Assembly (NCBI GenBank): GCA_016180435.1
Contig: JACPBG010000003.1
Location: 13,791-77,790 of the forward strand
DNA from: Candidatus Sungiibacteriota bacterium
GTDB taxonomy: Bacteria; Patescibacteriota; Minisyncoccia; Sungbacterales; HO2-52-23
Length of the DNA: 64,000 nucleotides
Reading direction: 5' to 3'
Shown: positions 2,843 through 47,614 of the stretch, one piece after another
Layout of the letters: every line of letters begins with the position of its first letter
Position numbering within the stretch: position 1 is the stretch's first letter
Notes under the pieces: model-generated
Told to the model about the DNA's origin: nothing
Database searches by the model: none
The model's input: only the letters and a program-made list of their open reading frames with translations
Translations under genes and position numbers: made by a program

Positions 2843-4585
2843 TTGGTTCGTAGAATTCTCTGGCGAAATGAAAAAACGCTCTATAAGCGGAGTTGTGACG
2901 TTCCGGGACATACGGAGCAATTACTTTCTACGTATTCGGCTGAAAAGCCGTTTAACGTTTATGACCAAAAGTATTGGTGGTCAGATGTATGGGATCCTCT
3001 GCAATTCGGGAGGAAATATGATTTTACACAGCCATTTTTTGAACAATTCCGGCAACTCATTCGGGCGGTTCCGCATCCTATACTTTTGACCGAGTATACT
3101 ACCTGTATAAATAGCGATTATTCCAATTGGGCCGGGGAGCTTAAAAATTGTTATTTAATCTCCGATGCGGATGTGGTGCAGGATTCCGCATACGGATCAG
3201 GAGTGTTTAACTGTAAAGATTGTTTTGATAACGGGAATATCTCGGAATCCGAACTATCGGCGCATAATTTCAATGTGCGTAAGTGCTACCGTACTGTTTT
3301 TTCGGTAGATTGTTCGTCATGTACGGAGGTATGGCTATCTAAAAATTGTATCGGATGCACAAATTGCTTTGGTTGCGTTAATTTAAGAAATAAATCTTAC
3401 CACATTTTTAATGTCCCCTACGATAGAGATAACTATTTTAAAAAATTGGAAGAATTCCGGCTCGGATCATTTGAAAATTTTGAAAAACTGCGGTTTGAAG
3501 CGGAGAAATTTTGGAATGCGCAGCCACAGAAATATATGCGAGGATTTTCTAATACGCGAACCTCGGGTGATTATATCTATCACTCCAAAAATGTTCAGCA
3601 CGGTTTTTTAATTACCGGCGTGGAAGATAGTAAATTTGTAGTTCTTACTCATGTTCCTTCTACGAAAGATTGCTATGACTATACGGATTGGGGATATGGA
3701 GCGGAGCGGCTATATGAATGTATGACGGTGGGGCTAAAGGCGAGTGATATAAAATTTAGTCACATTGTTTTCAGAAATGTGATGGATGTACAATACAGTT
3801 TTTGGTGCGGATCCGGATCATCAAACCTTTTTGGCTGCATCGGCCTCCGCTCCAAATCCTACTGCATCCTAAACAAGCAATACACCAAAGAAGAATACGA
3901 AACACTCGTCCCCAAGATCATTAAACACATGAACTCCATGCCTTATATAGATAAGAAAGGAAGAGTATATAAATATGGTGAATTCTTCCCTCCAGAGCTC
4001 TCTCCCTTCGCATATAACGAAACCATAGCCCAGGAATACTTTCCTTTAACCAAGGAACAAGCCATAGAGCAGGGATATGCCTGGAAAGACCCCGAGGAAC
4101 GAAATTACAAAATCCAAATTCCAAATGATAAACTACCGGATCACATTAAAGACGTTCCCGACGATATCGTGGGGCAGGTGATAGAGTGCGGCCATGCCAT
4201 ACAAGAATCAAGAAGCATGAATCATGAATCAAGAGTAATCTGTAACGAACAATGTACCGAAGCCTTTAAGATCATCAAACCCGAACTGGAGTTCTACCGT
4301 AAAATGAACCTGCCCCTGCCCCGTTTATGCCCCAATTGCCGGCATTACCAGAGAATCAAGCAAAGAAACCCCCTCCGCCTCTGGCACCGCCAATGCATGT
4401 GCCAAGGCGCAAAATCCCAAATCTCAAATTCCAAATCCCAAACAAATTCCAATTTCCAATATAAAAACACTGCCGCTCATTCCCACGGACCAAGTCCCTG
4501 CCCCAATGAGTTTGAGACATCTTACGCTCCGGAGAGACCGGAGATAGTTTATTGCGAGGCCTGTTACAATACGGAGATTATTTAG
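2843..4585 (+). CDS. Cysteine-rich repeat protein with zinc-ribbon motifs (C..C..RNKSY-type repeats, C-terminal CxxC...LPLPRLCPNCR ribbon). The N-terminus appears disrupted (frameshift or deletion near 2796-2806).
   Basis: The long ORF has repeated units (CSSCTEVWLSKNCIGCTNCFGCVNLRNKSYHIFN and CGSGSSNLFGCIGLRSKSYCILN) and a C-terminal ribbon ELEFYRKMNLPLPRLCPNCR. An ATG at 2766 encodes MTRQCQNCKQ in another frame, and VPPPTWCPECR continues in the 2843 frame. The ORF in the 2843 frame has no ATG and uses a TTG start. Confidence 0.55.
   Translation: MVRRILWRNEKTLYKRSCDVPGHTEQLLSTYSAEKPFNVYDQKYWWSDVWDPLQFGRKYDFTQPFFEQFRQLIRAVPHPILLTEYTTCINSDYSNWAGELKNCYLISDADVVQDSAYGSGVFNCKDCFDNGNISESELSAHNFNVRKCYRTVFSVDCSSCTEVWLSKNCIGCTNCFGCVNLRNKSYHIFNVPYDRDNYFKKLEEFRLGSFENFEKLRFEAEKFWNAQPQKYMRGFSNTRTSGDYIYHSKNVQHGFLITGVEDSKFVVLTHVPSTKDCYDYTDWGYGAERLYECMTVGLKASDIKFSHIVFRNVMDVQYSFWCGSGSSNLFGCIGLRSKSYCILNKQYTKEEYETLVPKIIKHMNSMPYIDKKGRVYKYGEFFPPELSPFAYNETIAQEYFPLTKEQAIEQGYAWKDPEERNYKIQIPNDKLPDHIKDVPDDIVGQVIECGHAIQESRSMNHESRVICNEQCTEAFKIIKPELEFYRKMNLPLPRLCPNCRHYQRIKQRNPLRLWHRQCMCQGAKSQISNSKSQTNSNFQYKNTAAHSHGPSPCPNEFETSYAPERPEIVYCEACYNTEII
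4411..4460. repeat. In-frame TCCCAAA/TTCCAAA repeat run in the Cys-rich protein gene (KSQISNSKSQTNSNFQYKN)
   Basis: aaaatcccaaatctcaaattccaaatcccaaacaaattccaatttccaat. Confidence 0.75.
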
Positions 4586-12878: not shown

Positions 12879-12965
12879 GAAGACAAATTTTCAATTTTTA
12901 ATTATCAATTTCCAAACAAATAAAGTATAACATTATTAGATAAAAAAAGAAGCGCTGGTGGGCGC

Positions 12966-17497: not shown

Positions 17498-20400
17498 ATG
17501 CGCTATTTTCCCCACAAAATAGAAAAAAAGTGGCAAAAAATTTGGCTGAAAATGGAAATCTATGAACCCGACATCAAGAAAACCAAAAAGCCGTTTTATA
17601 ATTTAATGATGTTTCCGTATCCTTCCGCCGAAGGACTGCATGTTGGGAATATGTACGCGTTTACCGGCGCGGATATTTATGGTCGTTTTATGCGGATGCG
17701 GGGGCGTGATGTTTTTGAGCCGATCGGCCTTGATGGTTTCGGGATCCATTCGGAAAATTTTGCCATGAAAATTGGGAGGCACCCGGCGGATCAGGCCAAA
17801 ATTTCGGAGAAAAATTTTTACCGTCAGCTTGAGGCGCTTGGAAACGGGTTTGCTTGGTGTGAACGGCTTGAAACATATAACCCCGAATATTATAAATGGA
17901 CCCAATGGATTTTTGTGCAAATGTTTAAACGCGGCCTTGCCTATCGCAAAAAGCAGGCAGTGAATTGGTGTCCCAACTGCAAAACAGTGCTTGCGGATGA
18001 GCAGGTCATACAGAAATCCGAAATCCGAAATCCGAAATCCGAAACAAATTCGAAATTCGAAATTCCCGCCGGAGGCGAGGCTCGCTCGGGGCGGCAAAAT
18101 TCAAAACAAAAAATCACGATTGGCGTATGCGAACGATGCGATACGCCGGTGATTAAAAAAGAACTGGAGCAATGGTTTTTCAAAATAACGGATTATGCCG
18201 AGCGGCTTCTCGGAAATCTTGCAAAACTTGATTGGTCGGAGCGCGTCAAAATCGCGCAAAAAAACTGGATCGGGAAATCCGAGGGCGCTTTAATCAAATT
18301 TCCAATTTCCAATTTCCAATTTCCAATTAAGGATCTTGATTTTGTATTTATCCATGGATATAAAGGCGATTCACGGGATATTTTTTGGCCATGGTTTAGA
18401 AAAGAAATCGAACGTAGAGGCGCTAAGGTCTTTGCCCCCGACTTGCCCAATTCAGATGCGCCTAATATAAATGAACAGGTTCAATATGTTTTAAAGCAAC
18501 ATTCATTTAGCGAAAAGACCGTTATTGTGACTCACTCTTTGGGGGGCGTGGTTGCTATGAAATTATTGCCTTTATTGCACGATAAAATAGAACGGCTTTT
18601 GCTGGTGGCACCGCCTCTTCGGACGGAATTTCTGGATGGAAAAAAACGCCCGGCTTTAGAGGACGCTTGTGATTGGAAATTCAATTTTAATGAAATTAAA
18701 AAACACGCGAGGAATATTAGTGTTTTAGCAGATACGGAAGATCATGTTGTGTCCTTGGATCAACTCGTAGAAATTGCCGGACAGCTTAATGCCAGATTAC
18801 GGAAAACTGTGGCGAGTGCCCCGCATTTTAGAGAAATTGTAGAGCCGGAAATCGTAAACGAATTGTTTCCGGAAATTGAGATTTTTACCACGCGGCCGGA
18901 CACGCTTTTTGGAGCAACGTACCTCGTACTCTCGCCAGAGTACGAGGAAATTTCCAATTTCCAATTTCCAATTTCCAATCGCGGGGAAGTTGACGAATAT
19001 ATTAAAAATACGAAAGCTAAAACCGAGGAGGAAAGAATTTCCGAAGGCAGAGAAAAAACCGGAGTTGAATTAAAAGGAATAAAAGTTATAAATCCGGTAA
19101 ACGGCGAGGAAATCCCGGTGTGGGTTGCGGATTATGTTTTGGGCGGAGTGGGGATGGGCGCTATTATGGCGGTTCCGGCGCATGATGAGCGCGATTTTGA
19201 GTTCGCGAAAAAACACGATTTGCCGATTAAGACAGTCGTCGAATCATTCTACATTCAAAAAGAGGAACCGGGCGTATATAGAGAAAATGAATCAATCGTA
19301 CCGCGGGACGGGATAATTACAATTATCAAGCATTGGTCTGAAGATAAATATATTGGTCTTAAATGGAAAAAGGTTGCCTGGGGAACATTTCTTACGGGTG
19401 GCATAGAGAAAGGGCAAACCGCGGAACAGGCCGGAGTTGCTGAAATTTTGGAAGAAACAGGATATCTTCACCCCAAGTTTATTCGAGAACTTGGCATAAC
19501 GCACGGGCTTTTTTATCACGTTCCCAAAAAAGAGAATCGTCTTGTGCATGCACATATTCTCTATTTTGAATTGCAGGATGGGGCCCGGACCGAGATATCC
19601 GAAAAAGAGCAAGAGATTCATGATATAAAATGGTTGACTCTAAAAGAGCTTAAATCTTTCCTTACCCCCGCTACTCATACTTATGCCCTTGATTTATTTA
19701 GGGAGGGAATAAAAGTATATACGGGCGGGGGAATTCTTTGTAATTCCGGAGAATTCAACGGTATGGATTCAGAAAAGGCCAAATTGGAAATTACGAAATT
19801 CGTCTGCGGAGAGCGTAAAATTCAGTATCGCTTGCGGGATTGGTTGATTTCGCGACAAAGGTATTGGGGACCTCCAATTCCAATGATTTTTTGCGAGAGC
19901 TGCAAAAAATCACTGGAAAATTCCAAATTCTCGAAAGGAGAATTAGAAAATCCCGGATGGACAGCGGTGCCGGAAAAGGATTTGCCGGTAAAATTGCCGT
20001 ATGTGAAAAATTTCCGGCCGACCGGTACGGACAAATCACCCCTTGCCACTGTTAAAAAATTTTACAAAGTTCGCTGTCCCAAATGTAAATCTTGGGCTCG
20101 TAGGGAAACCGATGTTTCGGACACTTTCCTGGATTCGGCATGGTATTATTTACGCTATCCGAGCGTAAAAATGCAAAATTCAAAAATCAAAATGCAAAAT
20201 GAAAATTCAAAATCTAAAAATATAGAAATTCCTTGGAATTCGGAAATTACTAAAAAATGGACACCGGTGAACATGTACATAGGCGGAGCAGAACATTCTG
20301 TGCTTCATCTTCTTTACTCTCGTTTTTTAGCAATGGCGTTTAAGGATTGGGGATTGACGCATTTTGAAGAACCATTCACAAAATTTCGCGCGCATGGGCT

Positions 20401-21121
20401 TTTGATAAAAGACGGAACGAAGATGTCAAAGTCCAGGGGGAATGTGGTCAATCCGGATGAGTATATTAGAGCGTATGGCGCGGATGCTCTGCGTATGTAT
20501 TTGATGTTTTTGGGGCCGTTTGAGCAGGGCGGGGATTTTCGGGATGACGGGATCAGGGGAATAACACGGTTTTTGGAGAGAGCATACAAACTAATTTCCA
20601 ATTTCCAAAATCCAATTTCCAAACAAATTCCAAATTCAAAATCACAAATTCAAAAAATATTACACCAGACAATTAAGAAAGTAACGGAAGATATTGAGAA
20701 CCTGCAATACAATACGGCGATTTCGGCTTTAATGATACTTTTGAATAAGTTTGAAGAAAATCCGTCCGCAGTTACTAAAGAACACGTTTCAATATTTTTG
20801 CGATTGTTGGCTCCGGTTGCGCCCTTCATAACGGAGGAATTGTGGAGTATGTTTCCTACAAACTACAAACTACAAGCTACAAGCGTACATAAAAATAAGT
20901 GGCCGGAATATGACCCGAAATTGATTCAAGAAGACACGTTTGAGCTGGTGGTCCAGATAAACGGCAAAGTGCGGGACAAATTTGAGGCTCCGATTGATGT
21001 CTCTGAAGATAATGCAACCCGTTTGACTTTGGGGCGGGAGAGGGTTAAGAGTATAGTTGGAACCTTAAAACCGCGTAGGATTATTTTTGTCCCGAAGCGG
21101 TTGATAAATATCGTGATTTAG
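17498..21121 (+). CDS. leuS: Leucyl-tRNA synthetase carrying two extra inserted domains in one continuous ORF: an alpha/beta serine hydrolase (about 18329-18830) and a Nudix-like domain (about 19290-19720)
   Basis: LeuRS motifs: PYPSAEGLHVGN (HIGH-type), TTRPDTLFGATYLV, AVPAHDERDFEFA (editing Asp), NSGEFNGMD, YRLRDWLISRQRYWGPPIP and KMSKSRGNVVNP. The insert FIHGYKGD...THSLGG (GxSxG) resembles a YdeN/RBBP9-type hydrolase. The insert GGIEKGQTAEQAGVAEILEETGY is a Nudix-box-like sequence in which E is replaced by Q and R by A. At least six in-frame repeat insertions are present. Confidence 0.9.
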   Translation: MRYFPHKIEKKWQKIWLKMEIYEPDIKKTKKPFYNLMMFPYPSAEGLHVGNMYAFTGADIYGRFMRMRGRDVFEPIGLDGFGIHSENFAMKIGRHPADQAKISEKNFYRQLEALGNGFAWCERLETYNPEYYKWTQWIFVQMFKRGLAYRKKQAVNWCPNCKTVLADEQVIQKSEIRNPKSETNSKFEIPAGGEARSGRQNSKQKITIGVCERCDTPVIKKELEQWFFKITDYAERLLGNLAKLDWSERVKIAQKNWIGKSEGALIKFPISNFQFPIKDLDFVFIHGYKGDSRDIFWPWFRKEIERRGAKVFAPDLPNSDAPNINEQVQYVLKQHSFSEKTVIVTHSLGGVVAMKLLPLLHDKIERLLLVAPPLRTEFLDGKKRPALEDACDWKFNFNEIKKHARNISVLADTEDHVVSLDQLVEIAGQLNARLRKTVASAPHFREIVEPEIVNELFPEIEIFTTRPDTLFGATYLVLSPEYEEISNFQFPISNRGEVDEYIKNTKAKTEEERISEGREKTGVELKGIKVINPVNGEEIPVWVADYVLGGVGMGAIMAVPAHDERDFEFAKKHDLPIKTVVESFYIQKEEPGVYRENESIVPRDGIITIIKHWSEDKYIGLKWKKVAWGTFLTGGIEKGQTAEQAGVAEILEETGYLHPKFIRELGITHGLFYHVPKKENRLVHAHILYFELQDGARTEISEKEQEIHDIKWLTLKELKSFLTPATHTYALDLFREGIKVYTGGGILCNSGEFNGMDSEKAKLEITKFVCGERKIQYRLRDWLISRQRYWGPPIPMIFCESCKKSLENSKFSKGELENPGWTAVPEKDLPVKLPYVKNFRPTGTDKSPLATVKKFYKVRCPKCKSWARRETDVSDTFLDSAWYYLRYPSVKMQNSKIKMQNENSKSKNIEIPWNSEITKKWTPVNMYIGGAEHSVLHLLYSRFLAMAFKDWGLTHFEEPFTKFRAHGLLIKDGTKMSKSRGNVVNPDEYIRAYGADALRMYLMFLGPFEQGGDFRDDGIRGITRFLERAYKLISNFQNPISKQIPNSKSQIQKILHQTIKKVTEDIENLQYNTAISALMILLNKFEENPSAVTKEHVSIFLRLLAPVAPFITEELWSMFPTNYKLQATSVHKNKWPEYDPKLIQEDTFELVVQINGKVRDKFEAPIDVSEDNATRLTLGRERVKSIVGTLKPRRIIFVPKRLINIVI
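18013..18064. repeat. In-frame GAAATCC/GAAATTC heptad repeat in leuS (IQKSEIRNPKSETNSKFEIP)
   Basis: gaaatccgaaatccgaaatccgaaatccgaaacaaattcgaaattcgaaattcc. Confidence 0.8.
18065..18098. repeat. GGCGAGGCTCGC palindromic element copy in leuS (cccgccggaggcgaggctcgctcggggcggcaaaa; AGGEARSGRQ)
   Basis: About 90% identical to the metG copy at 14598-14633. Confidence 0.85.
18297..18328. repeat. In-frame ATTTCCA repeat x4 in leuS (FPISNFQFPIKD)
   Basis: aatttccaatttccaatttccaatttccaatt. Confidence 0.8.
18949..18980. repeat. In-frame ATTTCCA repeat x4 in leuS (ISNFQFPISN), preceded by an 11-bp inverted repeat cctcgtactct/agagtacgagg (18922-18948)
   Basis: atttccaatttccaatttccaatttccaatcg. Confidence 0.8.
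20168..20222. repeat. In-frame AAAATGCAAAAT/TTCAAAA repeat in leuS (KMQNSKIKMQNENSKSKN)
   Basis: aaaatgcaaaattcaaaaatcaaaatgcaaaatgaaaattcaaaatctaaaaa. Confidence 0.75.
20594..20655. repeat. In-frame TTTCCAA/ATTCAAA repeat in leuS (ISNFQNPISKQIPNSKSQIQKI)
   Basis: atttccaatttccaaaatccaatttccaaacaaattccaaattcaaaatcacaaattcaaaaa. Confidence 0.8.
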
Positions 21122-21700: not shown

Positions 21701-21785
21701 AACCCTTTTCTTTCAATAAGAAGTTATATAATGTATAGATACATAAGCGCTATAGCGCCACTTTTAGAAAATTCATAAGTGAGCA

Positions 21786-21990
21786 TATGGGCGGTTGAGG
21801 ATGTTTGATTTTAGACAATGGGAGGATTAGTTTGTTAGGTTCTCCGCCGCAGGCGGATTCAATAAGAAAATTCTCCAAGCGAGTCACAGGCGGAATTTAG
21901 CATTTTGCTTTTAAGGCAATGGGAGGATAAGTTTGCATGGTTTCTGCCGCAGGCGGATACAATACGAAAACCCATAAACGAGCTAATCAT
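21786..21990. repeat. Family-B structured repeat (two tandem units containing ttttagacaatgggagg ... ccgccgcaggcgg ... gagtcacag)
   Basis: Shares the motifs gggcggttgaggatgtttgattttagacaatgggagg with 41380-41420 and 47375-47395. Confidence 0.7.
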
Positions 21991-37351: not shown

Positions 37352-38722
37352 ATGGCAATGCAATATAAAAACGTAAAAAAATATGATAGGGAGATTTATA
37401 ATCTTATCCGTGAAGAAGAACGAAGGCAGAAAGATGGGTTGGAACTTATCCCTTCGGAAAGTTACGCATCCGCCGCTGTGCTTGAGGCCCTGGGCAGTAT
37501 TTTGAATGACAAATATGCGGAGAATTATCCGGGAAAACGCTATTACGGCGGGTGCGAGACCGTGGATAAGGTGGAACGGTTGTGCCAGGAACGCGCCTTA
37601 AAAGTTTTTCGCGCGCAAGGATACAAAGTAAATGTCCAGCCCTATTCCGGAAGTCCGGCCAATATTGAGGTGTATGCGGGATTGCTTGATTTTGGAGATA
37701 CGATCATGGCTTTGCGCTTGGATCATGGCGGCCACTTGACCCACGGTTCTCCGGTAAGTTTTTCAGGTAAGGCATACAAATTTATTCATTATGGAGTTGA
37801 TCCAAAAACTGAATGTCTTGATTATGACGAAATTGCGCGGCTCGCCCAAAAACATAAGCCCAAAATTATTCTTTCCGGATTTACCGCCTATCCGCGGCTG
37901 ATAGATTTTAAAAAAATGCACGCGATTGCAAAATCTGTCGGCGCAATTTCCATGGCGGACATTTCGCATATTTCGGGACTTATCATCGGCGGCGCTCATC
38001 CCTCGCCTTTTCCGTTCACGGATGTGGTGACAACTACTACGCATAAAACCCTGCGCGGTCCGCGCGCGGCTATGATATTTTCTCGAAAAGATAAAAGTAT
38101 AAAGATAAAAGATAAAAACGTCTTGATTTCTGAAGCTATTGATAAGGCAGTTTTCCCCGGCATGCAGGGCGGGCCGCATGAGCACACGATCGCGGCAATT
38201 GCCGTGGCTTTGCACGAGGCAAAAAAACCGGAATTCAGAAAATTTGCGGAGCAGGTGGTTAAAAATGCCAAAGTACTTGCCATAGCCATCCAAAAAGAAG
38301 GACTCCGTTTAATTTCGGGGGGAACCGATAATCATCTGATGTTAATTGATTTACGGCCGTTTGGCCCGGGTAGGGGAAAATTTATTGAAAAAGCATTGGA
38401 GGCAGTACGTATTAGTGTAAACAAAAGTCCTATTCCCAATGACCCTTCGCCGCCGTTTTATCCGTCCGGAGTCCGTCTGGGCACCCCGGCGATAACCAGC
38501 CGCGGCATGAAAGAAAAAGAAATGCGTGTTATTGCGGGATTTATCGCGCGTGTGGTGCGGGAATTTTCGCACGTCATACTGCCGGAGGAAAAATCCGAGC
38601 GCGCCACGGCGGTACGTGAATTTACCCAGAAACTTTCTCGCAGCCAATTTGTCAAAAAAATAGGTAGTGAGGTTAAACAGTTCGCATCAAGATTTCCGGT
38701 CCCGGGGATTGACACGAAATAA
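37352..38722 (+). CDS. glyA: Serine hydroxymethyltransferase
   Basis: SHMT motifs (LIPSENY-type N-terminus, PLP-Lys region TTTTHKTLRGPR). Has an in-frame AAAGATAAAAG repeat at 38086-38116 (KDKSIKIKDKN). Confidence 0.95.
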   Translation: MAMQYKNVKKYDREIYNLIREEERRQKDGLELIPSESYASAAVLEALGSILNDKYAENYPGKRYYGGCETVDKVERLCQERALKVFRAQGYKVNVQPYSGSPANIEVYAGLLDFGDTIMALRLDHGGHLTHGSPVSFSGKAYKFIHYGVDPKTECLDYDEIARLAQKHKPKIILSGFTAYPRLIDFKKMHAIAKSVGAISMADISHISGLIIGGAHPSPFPFTDVVTTTTHKTLRGPRAAMIFSRKDKSIKIKDKNVLISEAIDKAVFPGMQGGPHEHTIAAIAVALHEAKKPEFRKFAEQVVKNAKVLAIAIQKEGLRLISGGTDNHLMLIDLRPFGPGRGKFIEKALEAVRISVNKSPIPNDPSPPFYPSGVRLGTPAITSRGMKEKEMRVIAGFIARVVREFSHVILPEEKSERATAVREFTQKLSRSQFVKKIGSEVKQFASRFPVPGIDTK

Positions 38723-38783
38723 TCAGTATGTTACGTATAAACACATAAGTTCTTTATAGATTTTTTGCGTAGATGGTAGCAAT

Positions 38784-39071
38784 ATGAAGAAGCGGACATT
38801 CATGATGTTGGTTGCGATCTTTCTTCTTGTGCCGATTGGCAGTTTTGGGCAAAATAAGCCGGTTGATATCTGTATTTCAGTAATTGATATGCAGATCGTC
38901 CCGGTTGCACGAATTCCTTTCTTCGGTGGGCAAGTGCTTGTAGGAGGGCGTCGCTATCAATTGCCCGACGGCAGGATCATCGAAATTCCCATTCCAGTCT
39001 TTCCGGAACACATGAAAATCGGATCAGATGGATTGCCCCTTTATTGCGGGCCACACAAAGTAGTGAAATAA
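38784..39071 (+). CDS. Small secreted hypothetical protein (95 aa)
   Basis: Signal peptide; preceded by the repeated promoter-bearing 60-mer gattgacacgaaataatcagtatgttacgtataaacacataagttcttt (38700-38755). Confidence 0.4.
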   Translation: MKKRTFMMLVAIFLLVPIGSFGQNKPVDICISVIDMQIVPVARIPFFGGQVLVGGRRYQLPDGRIIEIPIPVFPEHMKIGSDGLPLYCGPHKVVK

Positions 39072-39128
39072 AGGAAGCCATTTGCGCTTCCTATTTTATT
39101 TGACCCATTTTGCGGCTAATGATATTAT
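39072..39128 (+). promoter_or_regulatory. Terminator-promoter cassette (hairpin aggaagccatttgcgcttcct + T-run, then TTGACC-N17-TATTAT)
   Basis: An identical 70-nt block recurs at 39947-40003; a variant terminator half lies at 41172-41201. Confidence 0.6.
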
Positions 39129-39135
39129 AAAAAAT

Positions 39136-39369
39136 ATGAATGTTATTACTATTCCAAAAGGAGAATTTGTGGTTATTCCGCGTAAGGACTACGAGGAACT
39201 TACTGAACTAAAAAAATGGATTCCAGTAGTTAAACCCACCCGGGGTGAGTTACGGGTTATACGGCGCGGTGAGCGGGAGATTGCACGTGGCGAGTACGTT
39301 TCGTGGTCAAAGGTAAAATATGAACTGGAACGCCGTCTTAACCGAAGTCGCAATAAAGCATCTGGATAA
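39136..39369 (+). CDS. Type II antitoxin (Phd/YefM-like N-terminus), cassette 1
   Basis: The ATG lies 8 nt downstream of the -10; MNVITIPKGEFVVIPRKDYEEL; the gene overlaps the downstream toxin. Confidence 0.5.
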   Translation: MNVITIPKGEFVVIPRKDYEELTELKKWIPVVKPTRGELRVIRRGEREIARGEYVSWSKVKYELERRLNRSRNKASG

Positions 39370-39577
39370 AATTCCGGCGCATGATGTCAAGGCAATTAAA
39401 ATAGTTATACAGCAGATGGAGGAGAATCCATATCTTGGTGATATTGTAAAGCTGGGGGGAGAAAATAATCGTTGGCGAAGACGCGCCGGAAATTATCGCC
39501 TTATGTATAACATTCTTTCCAAAGAAAGGATTATTTTTATTTATGATATTCGACGGCGTACCAGCAATACGTATTAA
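39320..39577 (+). CDS. RelE/ParE-family toxin, cassette 1
   Basis: C-terminus GNYRLMYNI...IIFIYDIRRRTSNTY matches the RelE/ParE motif (GnYRiiY.i.d....v.i..i.hR). 85 aa. Confidence 0.6.
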   Translation: MNWNAVLTEVAIKHLDKIPAHDVKAIKIVIQQMEENPYLGDIVKLGGENNRWRRRAGNYRLMYNILSKERIIFIYDIRRRTSNTY

Positions 39578-39690
39578 AACGTTTCTTTTGACTGAAAAGA
39601 TTTGCCTCCAAATTTCCAGTTCCGGGGATTGACACGAAATAATCAGTATGTTACGTATAAACACATAAGTTCTTTGCATCGGAGGTAATT

Positions 39691-39948
39691 GTGGCTTCCC
39701 AAATACGCATTTTTTTGAAAAGTGCTTACTTTATTTTATGCGTTGATGCTATCGCACAAGGCGGGATTGTATCACTTCTGGTTTTTCGGGATCCCGCCCA
39801 ACTTTCGTATAGCCACGGCTGGGACGTATTTGCGCGGGCATTGTTTCTTTTAATGAGCATATGTTCGGCCGCGGGAGTGTCCATTTTGTGTTTTGCGTTC
39901 TTTTTCTCTTTTACATCGCTCTATAAAAGAGCATTTTTAATCAGTTAG
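39691..39948 (+). CDS. Small membrane protein (85 aa, GTG start)
   Basis: GGAGG 8 nt upstream of a GTG; two or three TM segments. Preceded by the second copy of the gattgacacgaaataatcag... 60-mer (39620-39676). Confidence 0.35.
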   Translation: MASQIRIFLKSAYFILCVDAIAQGGIVSLLVFRDPAQLSYSHGWDVFARALFLLMSICSAAGVSILCFAFFFSFTSLYKRAFLIS

Positions 39949-40010
39949 GAAGCCATTTGCGCTTCCTATTTTATTTGACCCATTTTGCGGCTAATGATAT
40001 TATAAAAAAT

Positions 40011-40247
40011 ATGAATGTGGTTACTATTCCTCAAAAATTAGCGCAGAAAGGTGATTTGGTAGTAGTCCCTCGGCGGGAATATGAGGCGCTTTTACGCAGG
40101 CAGCCCAAACTTATTCCAGTCATAAAGTTGACCCCTCTTGAAATGCGGGCTATTGAAAAAAGCGAGAAAGAACTTGCACGCGGGGATTATGTAACTTTAG
40201 ATGAATTAGAACATGAGTTGGGAAGTGCGAATACCAAAAAACGTTAG
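40011..40247 (+). CDS. Type II antitoxin, cassette 2 (paralogue of 39136..39369)
   Basis: Identical promoter/5' leader; MNVVTIPQKLAQKGDLVVVPRREYEALL. Confidence 0.5.
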   Translation: MNVVTIPQKLAQKGDLVVVPRREYEALLRRQPKLIPVIKLTPLEMRAIEKSEKELARGDYVTLDELEHELGSANTKKR

Positions 40248-40470
40248 GAAATGTATCAAGCGATTCCCCAAGGAAGATCGCGAACGCGTGATTGAAACGC
40301 TTCGCGATTTTGTTATTGATCCGTGGCGCGGGGATATCGCCAAAATTGGCGAAAAGGACAATTTATGGCGCCGACGGATCGGTAATTATCGCATTTCTTA
40401 CTCCATATTTATAAATTTGAACGTTGTTGAAATTAAAGACATTAAAAGGCGTACCAGCAATACGTATTAA
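40213..40470 (+). CDS. RelE/ParE-family toxin, cassette 2
   Basis: GNYRISYSI...VVEIKDIKRRTSNTY; identical C-terminus and 3' flank (taaaacgtttcttttgactgaaaagatttgcctccaaatttccagttccggg) to cassette 1. Confidence 0.6.
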   Translation: MSWEVRIPKNVRKCIKRFPKEDRERVIETLRDFVIDPWRGDIAKIGEKDNLWRRRIGNYRISYSIFINLNVVEIKDIKRRTSNTY

Positions 40471-40609
40471 AACGTTTCTTTTGACTGAAAAGATTTGCCT
40501 CCAAATTTCCAGTTCCGGGAATCTGACCCGATTTTATTGACACCGGAACGGTTTAAATGCTATAAGTAGTTAAAGTTCTTTGCAATTTGTTTAGAGAAAG
40601 GAAAGAGTT

Positions 40610-41164
40610 ATGAATCATAAAAAAGGTCTTACTCTGATGGAGATGTTGATAGTTATGACTGTGATTGGGATTTTGGCAGCGATAATCGTGCCGAGATTGC
40701 AAGAACGTAATCCGTGGTCACCTCCGGAAGTATACGCTTTATTTAGCGGCGAGCACGAATTGCGGCGCATGGTTGAACGTGAGGGCGCTGCTGAAAGTCG
40801 TTTAAGCGGTAGCGGGTTTTTTGTTCTAGGAACCGGAGCGATAACGATTGAAGGTACAACCAAATCGGCAACCCATATCACGTTTGCGTGGAAACATCCA
40901 CATGGAAAGAAAACTTTTGTGATCAGCACCATGCCCATTGAAAAAATACAGCCGACGTTTGACGTTTCGGCAACCGTTCCGCGTATCCGGTTTCAACTGC
41001 ATCCGAATTGTGCAGGAGGTGTGGGAAATGTTCGTTGTCCGGAGTGGAAACTGAAAGAGTGGGGGCCGCAAGCGATGATTGATAGCGGGTACATCGTGTA
41101 TGCGACATTGTTTATAAGAGAAGAGGATTGGCCAACGAAAATTCAGTTGCCGCTTTCAAAATAG
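40610..41164 (+). CDS. Prepilin-type N-terminal cleavage/methylation domain protein (type IV pilin/pseudopilin-like)
   Basis: MNHKKGLTLMEMLIVMTVIGILAAIIVPRL (class III signal peptide, G-[FL]TL-E motif). Confidence 0.75.
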   Translation: MNHKKGLTLMEMLIVMTVIGILAAIIVPRLQERNPWSPPEVYALFSGEHELRRMVEREGAAESRLSGSGFFVLGTGAITIEGTTKSATHITFAWKHPHGKKTFVISTMPIEKIQPTFDVSATVPRIRFQLHPNCAGGVGNVRCPEWKLKEWGPQAMIDSGYIVYATLFIREEDWPTKIQLPLSK

Positions 41165-41401
41165 AATATAAAGGAAGCCCTCGCGCTTCCTATTTTATTT
41201 GATTTTATGCAAATTTTATGCTATTTAAAGGTAGTGTAATGTATCAGGCGTGAAGCGCTACACTAAGAAAATTTTAAGTGAGTCAAAACGGTTGAGGCGT
41301 TTTGTTTTCGAAGCGATGGGGGGCGTTAAATCATGTTTTCCGCCTTAGGCGGACACAATAAGAAAATATCTAAGCGGAGTCATGGGCGGTTGAGGATGTT
41401 T

Positions 41402-41509
41402 GATTTTAGACAATGGGAGGTCCGATTTGCTTGGTTCCGCCGAAGGCGGAAAATCGGACTGACCTTTAGTGAGGCGGCCGCTGGGAGCCGCCGAATCGTG
41501 TCTAAAATC
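41402..41509. repeat. Family-B structured element, compact copy (closing stem gattttagaca/tgtctaaaatc with nested stems), 33 nt upstream of folD
   Basis: An 11-bp closing helix; nested helices gtccgattt/aaatcggac, ccgcc/ggcgg and gcggcc...gccgcc. The homologue at 47375-47614 has compensatory changes (ggcggc/gccgcc versus ggccgc/gcggcc). Confidence 0.7.
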
Positions 41510-41541
41510 AAATATCCGAAAACCGCCATACGAAGCGATCT

Positions 41542-42399
41542 ATGATTTTACTTGACGGGAAAAAACTGGCGGAAAAAATTCTGGATGAGGTGAAAAAGGA
41601 TGTTGCGGGATTGGATGAAAAACCGCGTCTGGCTATTGTGCTGGTGGGCAAAAATACGGCCATTGAGAAATTTATTGAACAAAAAAAGAAGGCCGCGAAG
41701 TCGGTCGGTATTGACGTGTGCATATATCCGTTTGATCAGGCCATAAGTACGAACGAACTCCGTAAGCGTCTTTCCGAAATAGTGCATGAGAAAAAAAATA
41801 CCGGTGTGATTGTGCAGTTACCTTTGCCGGAACAAATTCATGTTCAGTATATTTTAAATGCCATTACGCCCGAAAAAGATGTGGATGTATTATCTTCCCG
41901 CGCGATTGGGAATTTTTCCACCGGACGAAGCAAAATCATGCCGCCGGTTGCAGGCGCCATAAAAGCACTGTTTGAGGAATACGGAATTGATTATAAAAAT
42001 AAGCATGTAGTAATTTTGGGCGCCGGAAATCTGGTTGGAAAGCCGACGGCATTATGGTTGCTCAATGAAAAGGCGACATTTAGCGTTATACGCAGTTCCA
42101 CTCGGCATCCGGAAGAATTTTTGCAGCAAGCCGATATAATAATATCCGGAATCGGTAAACCGGGATTTATCACGGGAAACATGATAAAGGACGGCGCGGT
42201 TTTAATAGATGCCGGAACTTCGGAATCCGAAGGCCCCTCGACCGGGCTCGGGGTAAAAAAATTAGTTGGTGACGTTGATTTTGAGTCAGTTGCCGCCAAA
42301 TGTTCATTTCTTACTCCGGTTCCGGGTGGCGTAGGTCCACTGACAGTTGCGCTACTTTTTAAAAATTTAGTTGCGATATCCCCCCATGAATATCCTTGA
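41542..42399 (+). CDS. folD: Bifunctional methylenetetrahydrofolate dehydrogenase/cyclohydrolase
   Basis: MILLDGKKLAEKI, VQLPLP, ILGAGNLVGKP, and GGVGPLTVA FolD motifs. Confidence 0.95.
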   Translation: MILLDGKKLAEKILDEVKKDVAGLDEKPRLAIVLVGKNTAIEKFIEQKKKAAKSVGIDVCIYPFDQAISTNELRKRLSEIVHEKKNTGVIVQLPLPEQIHVQYILNAITPEKDVDVLSSRAIGNFSTGRSKIMPPVAGAIKALFEEYGIDYKNKHVVILGAGNLVGKPTALWLLNEKATFSVIRSSTRHPEEFLQQADIIISGIGKPGFITGNMIKDGAVLIDAGTSESEGPSTGLGVKKLVGDVDFESVAAKCSFLTPVPGGVGPLTVALLFKNLVAISPHEYP

Positions 42400-47248: not shown

Positions 47249-47374
47249 CAGTTCGGTCCTCGGGCCGATTTTTTATAGTTTAAATAATAGCCAGGCTCAA
47301 AGCCCTACCTGTCGGTAGGTAGGGCTACCATAAGCAAACCTTTTAAGCGAGCGTTGCGGCCGAAGGTATTTTCT

Positions 47375-47614
47375 ATTTTAGACAATGGGAGGATAAAATT
47401 GCTTGCCCCGCACCAAATTTTGACTGCCGCTTTCGTTTCCATCCAAGCAAATATGAACATCTGTTAAGAAATACAGAATATGTCCCGCCAGCTTATTCGA
47501 GGTGGCACGGAAACGGTCAAAATTTTGATGACGGGGCTTGGCTTGTGCGAAGCGCAAAAATTTGTCCGACCCTTAGCGAGGCCGCCGCAGGAGCGGCCGA
47601 GACGTGTCTAAAAT
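47375..47614. repeat. Family-B structured element, long copy, downstream of relA
   Basis: attttagaca...tgtctaaaat closing stem; shares the gaggcCgccgc...gcggCcga stem (compensated relative to the 41-kb copy) and the gagtcacag motif. Confidence 0.65.

What the first reader, a model, noticed from the sequence alone, without database searches (positions are those of the whole stretch)
38697..41201. Toxin-antitoxin island: two paralogous RelE/ParE cassettes with identical terminator-promoter flanks and 3' flanks but divergent cores, interleaved with small membrane proteins and followed by a prepilin
Both cassettes (39072-39630 and 39947-40525) begin with the same 70-nt block: hairpin aggaagccatttgcgcttcct + T-run, then TTGACC-N17-TATTAT, then an ATG 8 nt downstream. 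Both end with the same toxin C-terminus (…RRTSNTY) and an identical roughly 55-nt 3' flank. The intervening antitoxin and toxin N-terminal sequences are strongly diverged. This pattern (conserved recombination flanks, variable cargo) resembles integron-like or shufflon-like cassette exchange rather than simple tandem duplication. A second repeated promoter-bearing 60-mer (gattgacacgaaataatcagtatgttacgtataaacacataagttcttt) occurs at 38700-38755 and 39620-39676 and drives a small secreted and a small membrane protein. A third terminator variant closes the pilin gene (41172-41201).
Basis: partly seen in the sequence, partly recalled or inferred. Interest (0 to 1): 0.6.

Follow-up and report, generated by a model that had tools for sequence, protein, structure and literature searches.

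The report
Recombining toxin-antitoxin modules behind glyA
Between two housekeeping genes of a tiny groundwater bacterium lie two and a half tandem ~0.9-kb modules, each a small envelope gene plus (in the first two) a RelE-type toxin-antitoxin pair; each module starts with a leftover copy of the end of the neighbouring gene glyA, which points to growth and reshuffling by ordinary homologous recombination, not by an integron-like machine.

Summary
Three junction blocks are 98-100% identical between the two cassettes, while the cores are only 40-50% identical in DNA (antitoxins 47% aa, toxins 38% aa).

Each ~0.9-kb module therefore begins with an orphan glyA tail.

The window comes from a Candidatus Sungbacteria (Patescibacteria) chromosome. 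Related genomes carry 1-4 modules of the same design at this locus, with different small genes and different TA types. No integrase, attC-like hairpin or inverted repeat is present.

The toxins are archaeal-type RelE. The antitoxins share a toxin-binding C-terminal module with canonical antitoxins.

Best reading: TA cassettes inserted with a long duplication of a host gene end, the array was amplified through those repeats, cores were swapped between lineages, and the junctions were recently homogenised by homologous recombination. This matches a pattern described for restriction-modification genes but, as far as I found, not for TA pairs.

The same toxin family shows gene-end duplications in other phyla, and its stop codon repeatedly abuts the folD start in other Patescibacteria.

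Moderate interest; a new variant of a known kind.

The parts
37352..38722 (+). glyA (serine hydroxymethyltransferase), left anchor. Its last 16 codons (38675-38722, KQFASRFPVPGIDTK*) are the 'real tail'.
   Evidence: Pfam SHMT on the identical product; ORF list.
38702..38755 (+). Block A, copy 1: the end of glyA plus 33 nt downstream. Holds promoter-like TTGACA (38709-38714)-17-TACGTA ahead of the first small gene.
   Evidence: 54/54 identical to 39622-39675. Homologous to the promoter-bearing glyA tail of L008 and L015 (alignment A2). Not called by the promoter scan.
38784..39071 (+). Slot-1 gene of module 1: 95-aa protein with an N-terminal signal-peptide-like sequence.
   Evidence: ORF. Only one homologue cluster among 1.84 billion representatives (73% identity). 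No Pfam or NCBIfam match.
39072..39135 (+). Block B, copy 1: terminator-like hairpin 39072-39092, T-run, -35 TTGACC 39100-39105, -10 TATTAT 39123-39128; ATG follows 7 nt later (near-leaderless).
   Evidence: Homologous block upstream of TA pairs in L004, L015, L008, L108 and L041 (alignment A6).
39136..39369 (+). Antitoxin 1 (77 aa).
   Evidence: Overlaps toxin 1 by 50 nt. Its C-terminal module is shared with antitoxins that carry RHH or AbrB/MazE N-terminal domains. 94% identical to P0015 of the L004 lineage.
39320..39577 (+). Toxin 1 (85 aa), RelE type.
   Evidence: Pfam PF05016, 32.8 bits against a cut-off of 23. PDB: RelE3 3bpq_B 3e-5. Family profile against aRelE 1wmi_A: 4.5e-12.
39553..39594 (+). 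Block C, copy 1: last 8 toxin codons, stop, and 17 nt (aacgtttcttttgactg) that may be a remnant of the folD start.
   Evidence: Identical to 40446-40487. The 17-mer matches the L004 folD head at 11/17 positions; 1.5% of random 17-mers do as well.
39595..39675 (+). Orphan glyA tail 1 (39595-39642, reads KRFASKFPVPGIDTK*) plus block A, copy 2.
   Evidence: Differs from the real tail at 9 of 36 nt, distributed 1/2/6 over codon positions 1/2/3. 92.5% identical over 40 nt to the real glyA tail of L004.
39691..39948 (+). Slot-1 gene of module 2: 85-aa hydrophobic protein with a GTG start and GGAGG 5 nt upstream.
   Evidence: ORF and sequence. No family match. Coding status is inferred only.
39947..40010 (+). 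Block B, copy 2.
   Evidence: Identical to copy 1 upstream of the ATG. It is unlike the B blocks that precede TA2-type pairs in L015 and L008.
40011..40247 (+). Antitoxin 2 (78 aa).
   Evidence: 47% identical to antitoxin 1. The TA2 region matches L015 at 75% nt and L008 TA-b at 68% nt.
40213..40470 (+). Toxin 2 (85 aa), RelE type.
   Evidence: 38% identical to toxin 1, E = 3e-21. Pfam 17.9 bits, below the cut-off. P0001, 99% identical, is named RelE/StbE by NCBI.
40446..40526 (+). Block C, copy 2, plus orphan glyA tail 2 (40488-40526, reads KRFASKFPVPGI*).
   Evidence: It ends in a stop at the same place as the real GlyA of L004 and L108.
40527..40609 (+). Block A'': diverged promoter block, TTGACA 40537-40542, 18-nt spacer, TATAAG 40561-40566.
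   Evidence: Alignments A1 and A2. Contiguous homology with the segment that follows the real glyA in L108.
40610..41164 (+). Slot-1 gene of module 3: type IV pilin-like protein (184 aa).
   Evidence: Pfam N_methyl 30.9 bits (cut-off 21.2); TIGR02532 29.3 bits (cut-off 16.3). A 64%-identical homologue lies directly after glyA in L108.
41172..41202 (+). Block B'': hairpin and T-run only; no TA pair follows.
41542..42399 (+). folD, right anchor. In relatives the toxin stop codon abuts this start codon.

Best explanation
The region is a hypervariable islet between glyA and folD in a Candidatus Sungbacteria chromosome. It consists of 2.5 tandem modules of about 0.9 kb.

Each module contains, in order:
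1. An orphan copy of the glyA 3' end plus a promoter-like block.
2. One small lineage-specific envelope gene (a secreted 95-aa protein, an 85-aa membrane protein, or a pilin-like protein).
3. A hairpin terminator fused to a sigma-70-like promoter.
4. A bicistronic type II TA pair (absent from the third, partial module).

Shown:
- The module anatomy.
- The archaeal-RelE affinity of the toxins.
- Homology of the junction blocks with relatives.
- Variation in module number and content among relatives.
- The absence of recombinase domains and att-like structure.

Inferred history:
- The ancestral state was glyA, small gene, TA, folD, with the toxin stop abutting the folD start, as in L004, L106 and L050.
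- A TA-containing segment became flanked by a long duplication of the glyA end. The first joint probably fused the folD head to the glyA tail.
- The array then expanded and contracted by unequal homologous recombination through these direct repeats.
- Cores were exchanged between lineages by recombination in the conserved blocks.
- In this genome the junction blocks A, B and C were very recently copied or gene-converted. As a result, an old TA2-type core now sits inside TA1-type flanks.

Inferred function:
- Each antitoxin represses its (now identical) promoter and neutralises its own toxin.
- The toxins cleave ribosome-bound mRNA.
- The pairs stabilise the islet or act in phage defence.
For: - Mosaic: flanks 98-100% identical against cores of 13-63%.
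- The 3' flank is a glyA tail copy. The orphan tails keep the GlyA reading frame, and the second ends in a stop at the L004 and L108 position. Differences from the real tail fall mostly on third codon positions (1/2/6).
- The orphan tails match the real glyA tails of relatives closely: 92.5% over 40 nt to L004, 91% over 35 nt to L108.
- The B-TA1 block is 90.1% identical to L004, against 79-83% for glyA and folD (Fisher p = 1e-7). This indicates exchange between lineages.
- L008 carries four glyA tails at a 1014-1056-nt period. All are readable as GlyA C-termini, and each is followed by a small ORF, a B-like hairpin and promoter, and a TA pair or an orphan antitoxin.
- The same locus holds TA1 only (L004, L106), a TA2-type pair (L015), or pilin plus two other TA pairs (L108).
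- Window module 3 aligns contiguously (tail, A'', pilin, B'') with the segment directly after the real glyA in L108.
- Window B2 is identical to B1 and close to the TA1-linked B of L004, but unlike the B blocks that accompany TA2-type pairs elsewhere. This indicates homogenisation within this genome.
- No recombinase domain in 64 kb, and the junction does not fold.
- Long direct repeats of host gene ends flank this TA family in 7 of 73 loci, against 5 of 388 shifted control positions (p = 0.0008). The downstream copy starts 0-9 nt after the toxin stop.
- Precedent: 'insertion with long target duplication' and amplification through the repeats for restriction-modification genes. Those repeats often span start or stop codons, and most cases are in naturally competent species (PMC2853133). 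DprA is encoded in the window.
Against: - No empty site, circular intermediate or copy-number polymorphism was observed. The Logan contigs of the L008 lineage are identical to L008.
- How the first joint formed is unknown. The folD-head remnant is only suggestive (11/17 matches, about 1.5% by chance).
- Three separate identical blocks require either several conversion events, or one duplication followed by two core replacements. The data cannot tell these apart.
- The codon-position bias in the L008 tails is marginal (5/10/16).
- The window is from a metagenome-assembled genome with 50-90-nt exact repeats, so module order rests on the assembler.
- TA function, autoregulation and promoter activity are all inferred.
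Confidence: 0.6

Rival explanations
1. Integron-like or shufflon-like system: the conserved blocks are recombination sites for a dedicated site-specific recombinase that inserts, excises or inverts cassettes.
For: Arrays of cassettes of about 0.5-1 kb bounded by near-identical repeats, including RelE/ParE TA pairs with their own promoters, are typical of sedentary chromosomal integrons (own knowledge). The mosaic is real.
Against: - No integrase or other recombinase domain in any of the 40 scanned ORFs of the 64-kb window.
- The junction shows no fold beyond shuffled sequence.
- There are no R''/L''-L'/R' type inverted cores and no inverted repeats between blocks.
- Junction length and the gene of origin differ between genomes.
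Confidence: 0.04
2. Small integrase-less integrative modules that target the glyA 3' end. They would be mobilised in trans by a tyrosine or serine recombinase encoded elsewhere, each bringing a replacement glyA tail. This resembles the accretion of integrative elements at tRNA or gene 3' ends.
For: - Every module boundary carries a glyA tail that still reads as a GlyA C-terminus, in both the window and L008.
- The module farthest from glyA (the pilin module) matches the module that sits next to the real glyA in L108, as expected if new arrivals insert at the glyA-proximal side.
Against: - Tail length is not fixed (39-48 nt against about 128 nt).
- The same TA family is flanked by duplicated ends of other genes: the folD 3' end, a gyrB-like 3' end, and the 5' head of a downstream gene.
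- No recombinase is linked in any locus inspected.
Confidence: 0.12
3. An old tandem duplication with ordinary divergence. The flanks stayed identical only because they are regulatory elements under strong purifying selection.
For: Blocks A and B contain terminator and promoter signals, and block C encodes the family-invariant RRTSNTY active-site tail.
Against: - The orthologous B block of L004 differs at about 9 positions, and L106's is barely alignable, while the two window copies are identical.
- Synonymous sites of the last seven toxin codons differ from L004 but are identical within the window.
- Spacer and non-functional positions are identical too.
Confidence: 0.06
4. Assembly chimera: strains carrying alternative modules at one locus were chained in series through the shared 50-90-nt repeats.
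For: - The source is a metagenome-assembled genome.
- Short-read unitigs break inside block A (L001-L003 end at 38731), and L107 starts inside block C (40490).
Against: - The joint from toxin end to orphan glyA tail has a unique sequence that differs from the real tail, so it must exist in reads.
- The blocks are shorter than typical reads.
- L008, from an independent MAG, shows the same tandem design with diverged repeats that assemble unambiguously.
Confidence: 0.07

Closest known systems
Insertion with long target duplication, followed by amplification through the repeats, described for restriction-modification gene complexes (Nobusato et al. 2000 Gene 259:99; Furuta et al. 2010, PMC2853133)
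   Same: - An addiction-type gene unit with no transposase or integrase.
- Flanked by direct duplications of the target longer than 30 bp and of variable length.
- The duplications often span the start or stop codon of a neighbouring gene, which leaves that gene intact.
- Tandem amplification through the repeats.
- Found mostly in naturally competent bacteria.
   Different: - The cargo here is a RelE-type TA pair, with or without a small envelope gene, not an RM system. The double-strand-break explanation proposed for RM cannot apply.
- The junctions are secondarily homogenised, and the cores are substituted.
Toxin-antitoxin cassettes of sedentary chromosomal integrons (e.g. the Vibrio superintegron)
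   Same: RelE/ParE-type pairs with their own promoters, interspersed among small genes of unknown function in a repeat-bounded array. They are thought to stabilise the array (own knowledge; PMC11023631 listed).
   Different: No IntI, attI or attC. The boundaries are copies of a host gene end plus terminator and promoter blocks.
Archaeal RelE-RelB: Pyrococcus horikoshii aRelE (PDB 1wmi), Methanocaldococcus jannaschii RelE3 (3bpq); E. coli RelE
   Same: - The toxin family profile matches 1wmi_A at 4.5e-12 and 3bpq_B at 5.7e-7.
   Different: - The antitoxin has no detectable similarity to RelB.
- It combines an N-terminal domain seen here only in Patescibacteria, with no Pfam match, and a C-terminal module that elsewhere is fused to RHH or AbrB/MazE domains.
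Accretion of integrative elements at the 3' end of a target gene (tRNA, tmRNA or protein-gene att sites)
   Same: Tandem units separated by orphan copies of the target gene's 3' end, with the older units lying farther from the gene.
   Different: The units are only about 0.9 kb, there is no integrase, and the repeat length and target gene vary.

Membership tests
Type II TA, RelE/ParE superfamily (toxin) | Sequence membership: Pfam PF05016 at or above the gathering score, or a significant match to solved RelE structures | tested here: met
   Toxin 1 scores 32.8 bits against a cut-off of 23. Toxin 2 scores 17.9 bits (below cut-off) but is 38% identical to toxin 1 (E = 3e-21). The family profile matches aRelE 1wmi_A at 4.5e-12.
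Type II TA, RelE/ParE superfamily (toxin) | RelE-type catalytic residues (equivalents of R61, R81 and C-terminal Y87), as opposed to ParE | tested here: met
   W52, R53, R55, G57, R60, Y63, R79, R80 and Y85 are invariant across 16 family members.
Type II TA (operon architecture) | A small upstream gene that overlaps the toxin gene and encodes a protein with a DNA-binding domain plus a toxin-binding domain | tested here: met
   The genes overlap by 50 nt and 35 nt. The antitoxin's C-terminal module is shared with homologues carrying RHH (PF01402) or MazE/AbrB (PF04014) N-terminal domains. The N-terminal domain found here has no family match, and the structure model was poor (pLDDT 61).
Type II TA (function) | Toxicity of the toxin, neutralisation by the cognate antitoxin, autoregulation of the promoter | not testable with these tools
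   Requires expression experiments.
Integron | An IntI tyrosine recombinase with attI next to the array | tested here: not met
   No recombinase domain in any of the 40 scanned ORFs of the 64-kb window. The neighbours are housekeeping genes. ORFs below 120 aa outside the island were not scanned.
Integron | attC sites: imperfect inverted repeats that fold as hairpins at each cassette boundary | tested here: not met
   The C-A junction folds no better than shuffled sequence on either strand (z +0.94 and +0.25). Reading the junction sequence by eye, I saw no GTTRRRY / RYYYAAC core pair; no pattern search was run.
Shufflon | Invertible segments bounded by inverted repeats, with an Rci-type recombinase | tested here: not met
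   All block repeats are direct. The only strong inverted repeats lie in the unrelated element at 41336-41529. No recombinase was found.
Insertion with long target duplication (Kobayashi group) | A unit flanked by direct repeats longer than 30 bp that correspond to a single-copy target sequence, with no other mobile-element genes | tested here: met
   - Window: the real glyA tail plus block A (38681-38755) is repeated at 39601-39675 and partly at 40494-40522.
- L020: 52 nt of the folD 3' end. L043: 44 nt of a gyrB-like 3' end. L024: 30 nt of a gene's 5' head.
- Enrichment: 7/73 against 5/388.
Insertion with long target duplication (Kobayashi group) | An empty site in a related genome that carries one copy of the repeat | tested here: inconclusive
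   Relatives with fewer modules exist: L004 and L106 go from one TA pair straight to folD. No relative lacking the TA pair at this locus was found, and the collection scans were exhausted.
Type IV pilin / pseudopilin | N-terminal prepilin cleavage and methylation motif followed by a hydrophobic helix | tested here: met
   PF07963 at 30.9 bits (cut-off 21.2) and TIGR02532 at 29.3 bits (cut-off 16.3). The sequence is MNHKKG/LTLMEMLIV.

The most novel reading that the evidence does not exclude
This RelE-type TA family may be an autonomous mobile unit of about 0.53-0.62 kb (promoter, antitoxin, toxin). On this reading it spreads without any recombinase by inserting at the very ends of housekeeping genes with a 30-130-nt duplication of the gene end. 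It then amplifies and exchanges cores through those repeats.

That is the virus-like life cycle proposed for restriction-modification genes, but for an element whose product cuts RNA rather than DNA. The mechanism would therefore have to be host-encoded, for example transformation plus template switching or homology-facilitated recombination.

In Patescibacteria the family has in addition become fixed just upstream of folD. There its autoregulated promoter would control a one-carbon-metabolism gene.
Probability: 0.25. Interest if true: 0.7.

Novelty: new variant of a known kind. Interest (0 to 1): 0.45.

Why it matters
- Type II TA pairs are called mobile, yet how bare two-gene modules move between chromosomal sites is mostly unknown. 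This locus and its relatives give a concrete, testable footprint: gene-end duplications that abut the toxin stop codon, tandem amplification, and core swapping inside conserved junctions.
- The footprint links TA pairs to the mobility mode described for restriction-modification genes. Because RelE does not cut DNA, it argues against an element-encoded DNA break as the cause.
- Patescibacteria have minimal genomes and few classical mobile elements. The glyA-folD interval appears to be a hotspot where small surface proteins are diversified next to addiction modules.
- folD often sits directly behind a TA operon in these bacteria, which may couple folate metabolism to TA regulation.

Tried and rejected
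- Exact-match scans for the 20-mer GCGCTTCCTATTTTATTTGA. There were no hits in the species-representative genomes. Of four metagenome hits, two were chance matches inside unrelated coding sequence (L006, L007).
- Exact-product look-ups of both toxins found nothing. P0001 could not be traced either.
- Rfam: no family matched in 38600-41600 at E up to 1. The whole window holds only one tRNA-Leu.
- Antitoxin identification failed by several routes: no PDB relative, only a sub-threshold phd_fam hit, and an AlphaFold model too poor (pLDDT 61) to justify a fold search.
- Plasmid and phage collections: no tblastn match to toxin 2.
- Population polymorphism in the L008 lineage: the Logan contigs were identical to L008.
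- The idea that TA1 and TA2 keep the same order in L008 was rejected. L008's first pair has a different toxin type.
- The idea that L008's tails show clear purifying selection is only marginally supported (codon-position counts 5/10/16).
- A folD-head origin for the -35 region of block B (the 12-mer ATTTTATTTGAC in L004) was judged possibly coincidental. A T-run followed by TTGAC is expected both after a terminator and in Leu/Phe-Asp codons.
- Literature searches for TA pairs with conserved flanks, or in CPR bacteria, returned nothing directly relevant.

Full report
**1. What is there**

The finding lies between glyA (37352-38722) and folD (41542-42399), all on the + strand. The interval reads, in order:

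| Coordinates | Feature |
|---|---|
| 38784-39071 | 95-aa signal-peptide protein |
| 39072-39135 | block B |
| 39136-39369 / 39320-39577 | antitoxin 1 / toxin 1 |
| 39553-39675 | block C, orphan glyA tail, block A |
| 39691-39948 | 85-aa hydrophobic protein |
| 39947-40010 | block B again |
| 40011-40247 / 40213-40470 | antitoxin 2 / toxin 2 |
| 40446-40609 | block C, orphan glyA tail, diverged block A'' |
| 40610-41164 | pilin-like gene |
| 41172-41202 | third B hairpin |
| 41240-41541 | about 300 nt of an unrelated repeated element |

- B: 82/84 identical.
- C: 74/74 identical.
- A: 54/54 identical.
- Cores: 13-63% identical in 30-nt windows.
- Proteins: 47% (antitoxins) and 38% (toxins) identical.

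Shuffled sequence gives no matches to these blocks.

**2.

Block A begins inside glyA. The stretch 39595-39642 after toxin 1 reads KRFASKFPVPGIDTK*. The real GlyA end reads KQFASRFPVPGIDTK*. They differ at 9 of 36 nt, and 6 of those fall on third codon positions.

The second orphan tail (40488-40526) reads KRFASKFPVPGI*. That is the same end, with the stop in the same place, as the real GlyA of relatives L004 and L108.

The orphan tails are close to those relatives' real tails: 92.5% identity over 40 nt to L004 and 91% over 35 nt to L108. Each ~0.9-kb unit therefore starts with a former glyA 3' end.

**3. Identity of the genes**

- Toxin 1 passes Pfam ParE_toxin. Toxin 2 does not pass alone.
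- A 16-member family profile matches Pyrococcus aRelE (1wmi_A) at 4.5e-12 and RelE3 (3bpq_B) at 5.7e-7.
- The shared RRTSNTY C-terminus is thus the family's active-site tail. That explains its amino-acid conservation, but not the 100% nucleotide identity.
- The antitoxins have no family hit. However, 65 upstream partners of this toxin family share their C-terminal module (consensus PT..E..AI.RG..E...G.yvtL.EL). In those partners it is fused to RHH, AbrB/MazE, or the ITIPK...VVIPR.EYE domain seen here only in Patescibacteria.
- The pilin-like protein has a valid prepilin motif.
- The 95-aa protein has a single homologue cluster in 1.84 billion representatives.

**4. Source and relatives**

A 99% match to toxin 2 and a 100% match to the pilin-like protein come from an NCBI Candidatus Sungbacteria MAG, on a 146-kb contig. 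The same locus in related genomes is modular and variable.

| Relative | Content between glyA and folD |
|---|---|
| L004, L098-L103 (glyA ~82% nt identical) | 53-aa ORF, 52-aa ORF, B, TA1 (90% nt identical), folD |
| L106 | 53-aa ORF, TA1 (79%), folD |
| L015 | 57-aa ORF, B, TA2-type pair (75%), two ORFs, folD |
| L108 | pilin homologue, B, one TA pair, a second TA pair of another toxin type, folD |
| L008 (glyA 62% nt identical) | four glyA tails at a 1014-1056-nt period; each readable as a GlyA C-terminus and followed by a small ORF, a B-like hairpin and promoter, and a TA pair or orphan antitoxin; no folD downstream |

In L008 and L015 the promoter that corresponds to block A lies inside the glyA coding end. 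Window module 3 (tail, A'', pilin, B'') aligns contiguously with the segment that follows the real glyA in L108.

**5. Why the flanks are identical**

B blocks are homologous in all relatives.
- The two window copies are identical to each other.
- They differ from the TA1-linked B block of L004 at about 9 positions.
- They are unlike the B blocks that accompany TA2-type pairs in L015 and L008.
- The last seven toxin codons are identical within the window but differ at synonymous sites from the L004 orthologue.

So an old TA2-type core sits inside TA1-type junctions. This is recent copying or gene conversion within this genome, not selective constraint.

The B-TA1 block is also significantly closer to L004 (90.1%) than glyA and folD are (79-83%; p = 1e-7). 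Together with the L004-like orphan tails, this indicates exchange between lineages.

**6. Mechanism**

Site-specific systems are not supported.
- No recombinase domain was found in 40 ORFs scanned across 64 kb.
- The junction does not fold like an attC site.
- No inverted repeats connect the blocks.
- Tail length differs between genomes (39-48 nt against about 128 nt).

The same TA family is flanked elsewhere by duplicated ends of other genes.
- L020: 52 nt of the folD 3' end.
- L043: 44 nt of a gyrB-like 3' end, including the stop codon.
- L024: the first 30 nt of a downstream gene.
- L052 and L056: further cases.

In each of L020, L024, L043 and L052 the downstream copy starts 0-9 nt after the toxin stop. 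Such repeats occur at 7 of 73 TA positions against 5 of 388 shifted control positions (p = 0.0008).

This is the footprint described as 'insertion with long target duplication' for restriction-modification genes. Those repeats often span start or stop codons. The cases occur mostly in competent species, and the units are known to amplify through the repeats (PMC2853133). I found no report of it for TA pairs.

DprA is encoded in the window, which is consistent with DNA uptake.

The 17 nt between the toxin stop and the orphan tail resemble the folD start (11/17 matches; 1.5% of random 17-mers do as well). In relatives TA1 abuts folD, so this fits a first joint that fused the folD head to the glyA tail. 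The evidence for this point is weak.

**7. Caveats**

- The window is from a MAG with exact 50-90-nt repeats, and short-read unitigs break at them.
- The orphan-tail joints are unique sequence, and L008 shows the same design with diverged repeats. I therefore rate an assembly chimera as unlikely, but it is not excluded.
- All functional statements (toxicity, autoregulation, promoter use) are inferences.

**8. Verdict**

The mosaic and the module turnover are real. The mechanism is homology-driven recombination at duplicated gene ends, not an integron or shufflon.

The TA pairs are new members of a known family. The array is a new variant of a known kind of mobility.

Beyond the finding, two points deserve follow-up. 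This toxin's stop codon repeatedly abuts the folD start across Patescibacteria. Gene-end duplications also recur around this TA family in other phyla.

Noticed in passing
window 41330-41545; also 21735-21950 (two cores) and 47300-47520; related copies at L004 2964-3036 and L098 27-99: A repeated intergenic element with the invariant core TTTTAGACAATGGGAGG. The copy just upstream of folD contains nested inverted repeats (41336-41358/41431-41453 and 41382-41412/41499-41529). No Rfam match at E up to 1 for the folD-proximal copy.
   Followed up: partly
L004 7030-7036, L050 5249-5251, L051 5255-5257, L019 5258-5263, L041 5251-5270, L106 3086-3088, L108 3246-3249: In several Patescibacteria the stop codon of a RelE-type toxin (or, in L108, a different toxin type) abuts or overlaps the folD start, with glyA a short distance upstream. 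folD is therefore probably co-transcribed with a TA operon. In the window this juxtaposition has been broken by the extra modules.
   Followed up: partly
L020 4678-4729/5261-5311; L043 4592-4635/5256-5299; L024 4698-4727/5262-5291; L052 202-231/771-800; L056 3603-3718/4345-4437: TA pairs of the same family in Liptonbacteria, other Patescibacteria and Acidobacteriota are bracketed by 30-115-nt direct duplications of a neighbouring gene's end. The insert between the repeats is about 530-620 nt in four of the five loci: L020, L024, L043 and L052.
   Followed up: partly
window 17498-21121: The leucyl-tRNA synthetase ORF (1207 aa) carries Pfam matches to a serine hydrolase / alpha-beta hydrolase (residues 283-437) and a NUDIX domain (627-721) inside the synthetase.
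   Followed up: no
window 47-2140: This ORF combines an N-terminal histidine phosphatase domain (His_Phos_1) with the C-terminal half of a class I tRNA synthetase and its anticodon-binding domain.
   Followed up: no
window 777-840, 1194-1257, 4102-4474, 12886-12917, 18014-18076, 18297-18328, 18949-18980, 20169-20687: Simple repeats of AAATTCC / AATTTCC type recur at many sites in the first 21 kb of the window. At least four of them (18014-18980) lie inside the LeuRS ORF 17498-21121.
   Followed up: no
loci L030, L040, L056 and others (RHH type); L067, L076 (AbrB/MazE type); Patescibacteria loci (ITIPK type): The antitoxin family is modular. One conserved toxin-binding C-terminal module is fused to three different N-terminal DNA-binding domains. 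The type found in Patescibacteria has no Pfam model.
   Followed up: partly
L008 7187-7408 and 7408-7478: An orphan antitoxin is followed directly by the last ~50 nt of a toxin gene and a glyA tail. This looks like an internal deletion of the toxin within one module of the L008 array.
   Followed up: no
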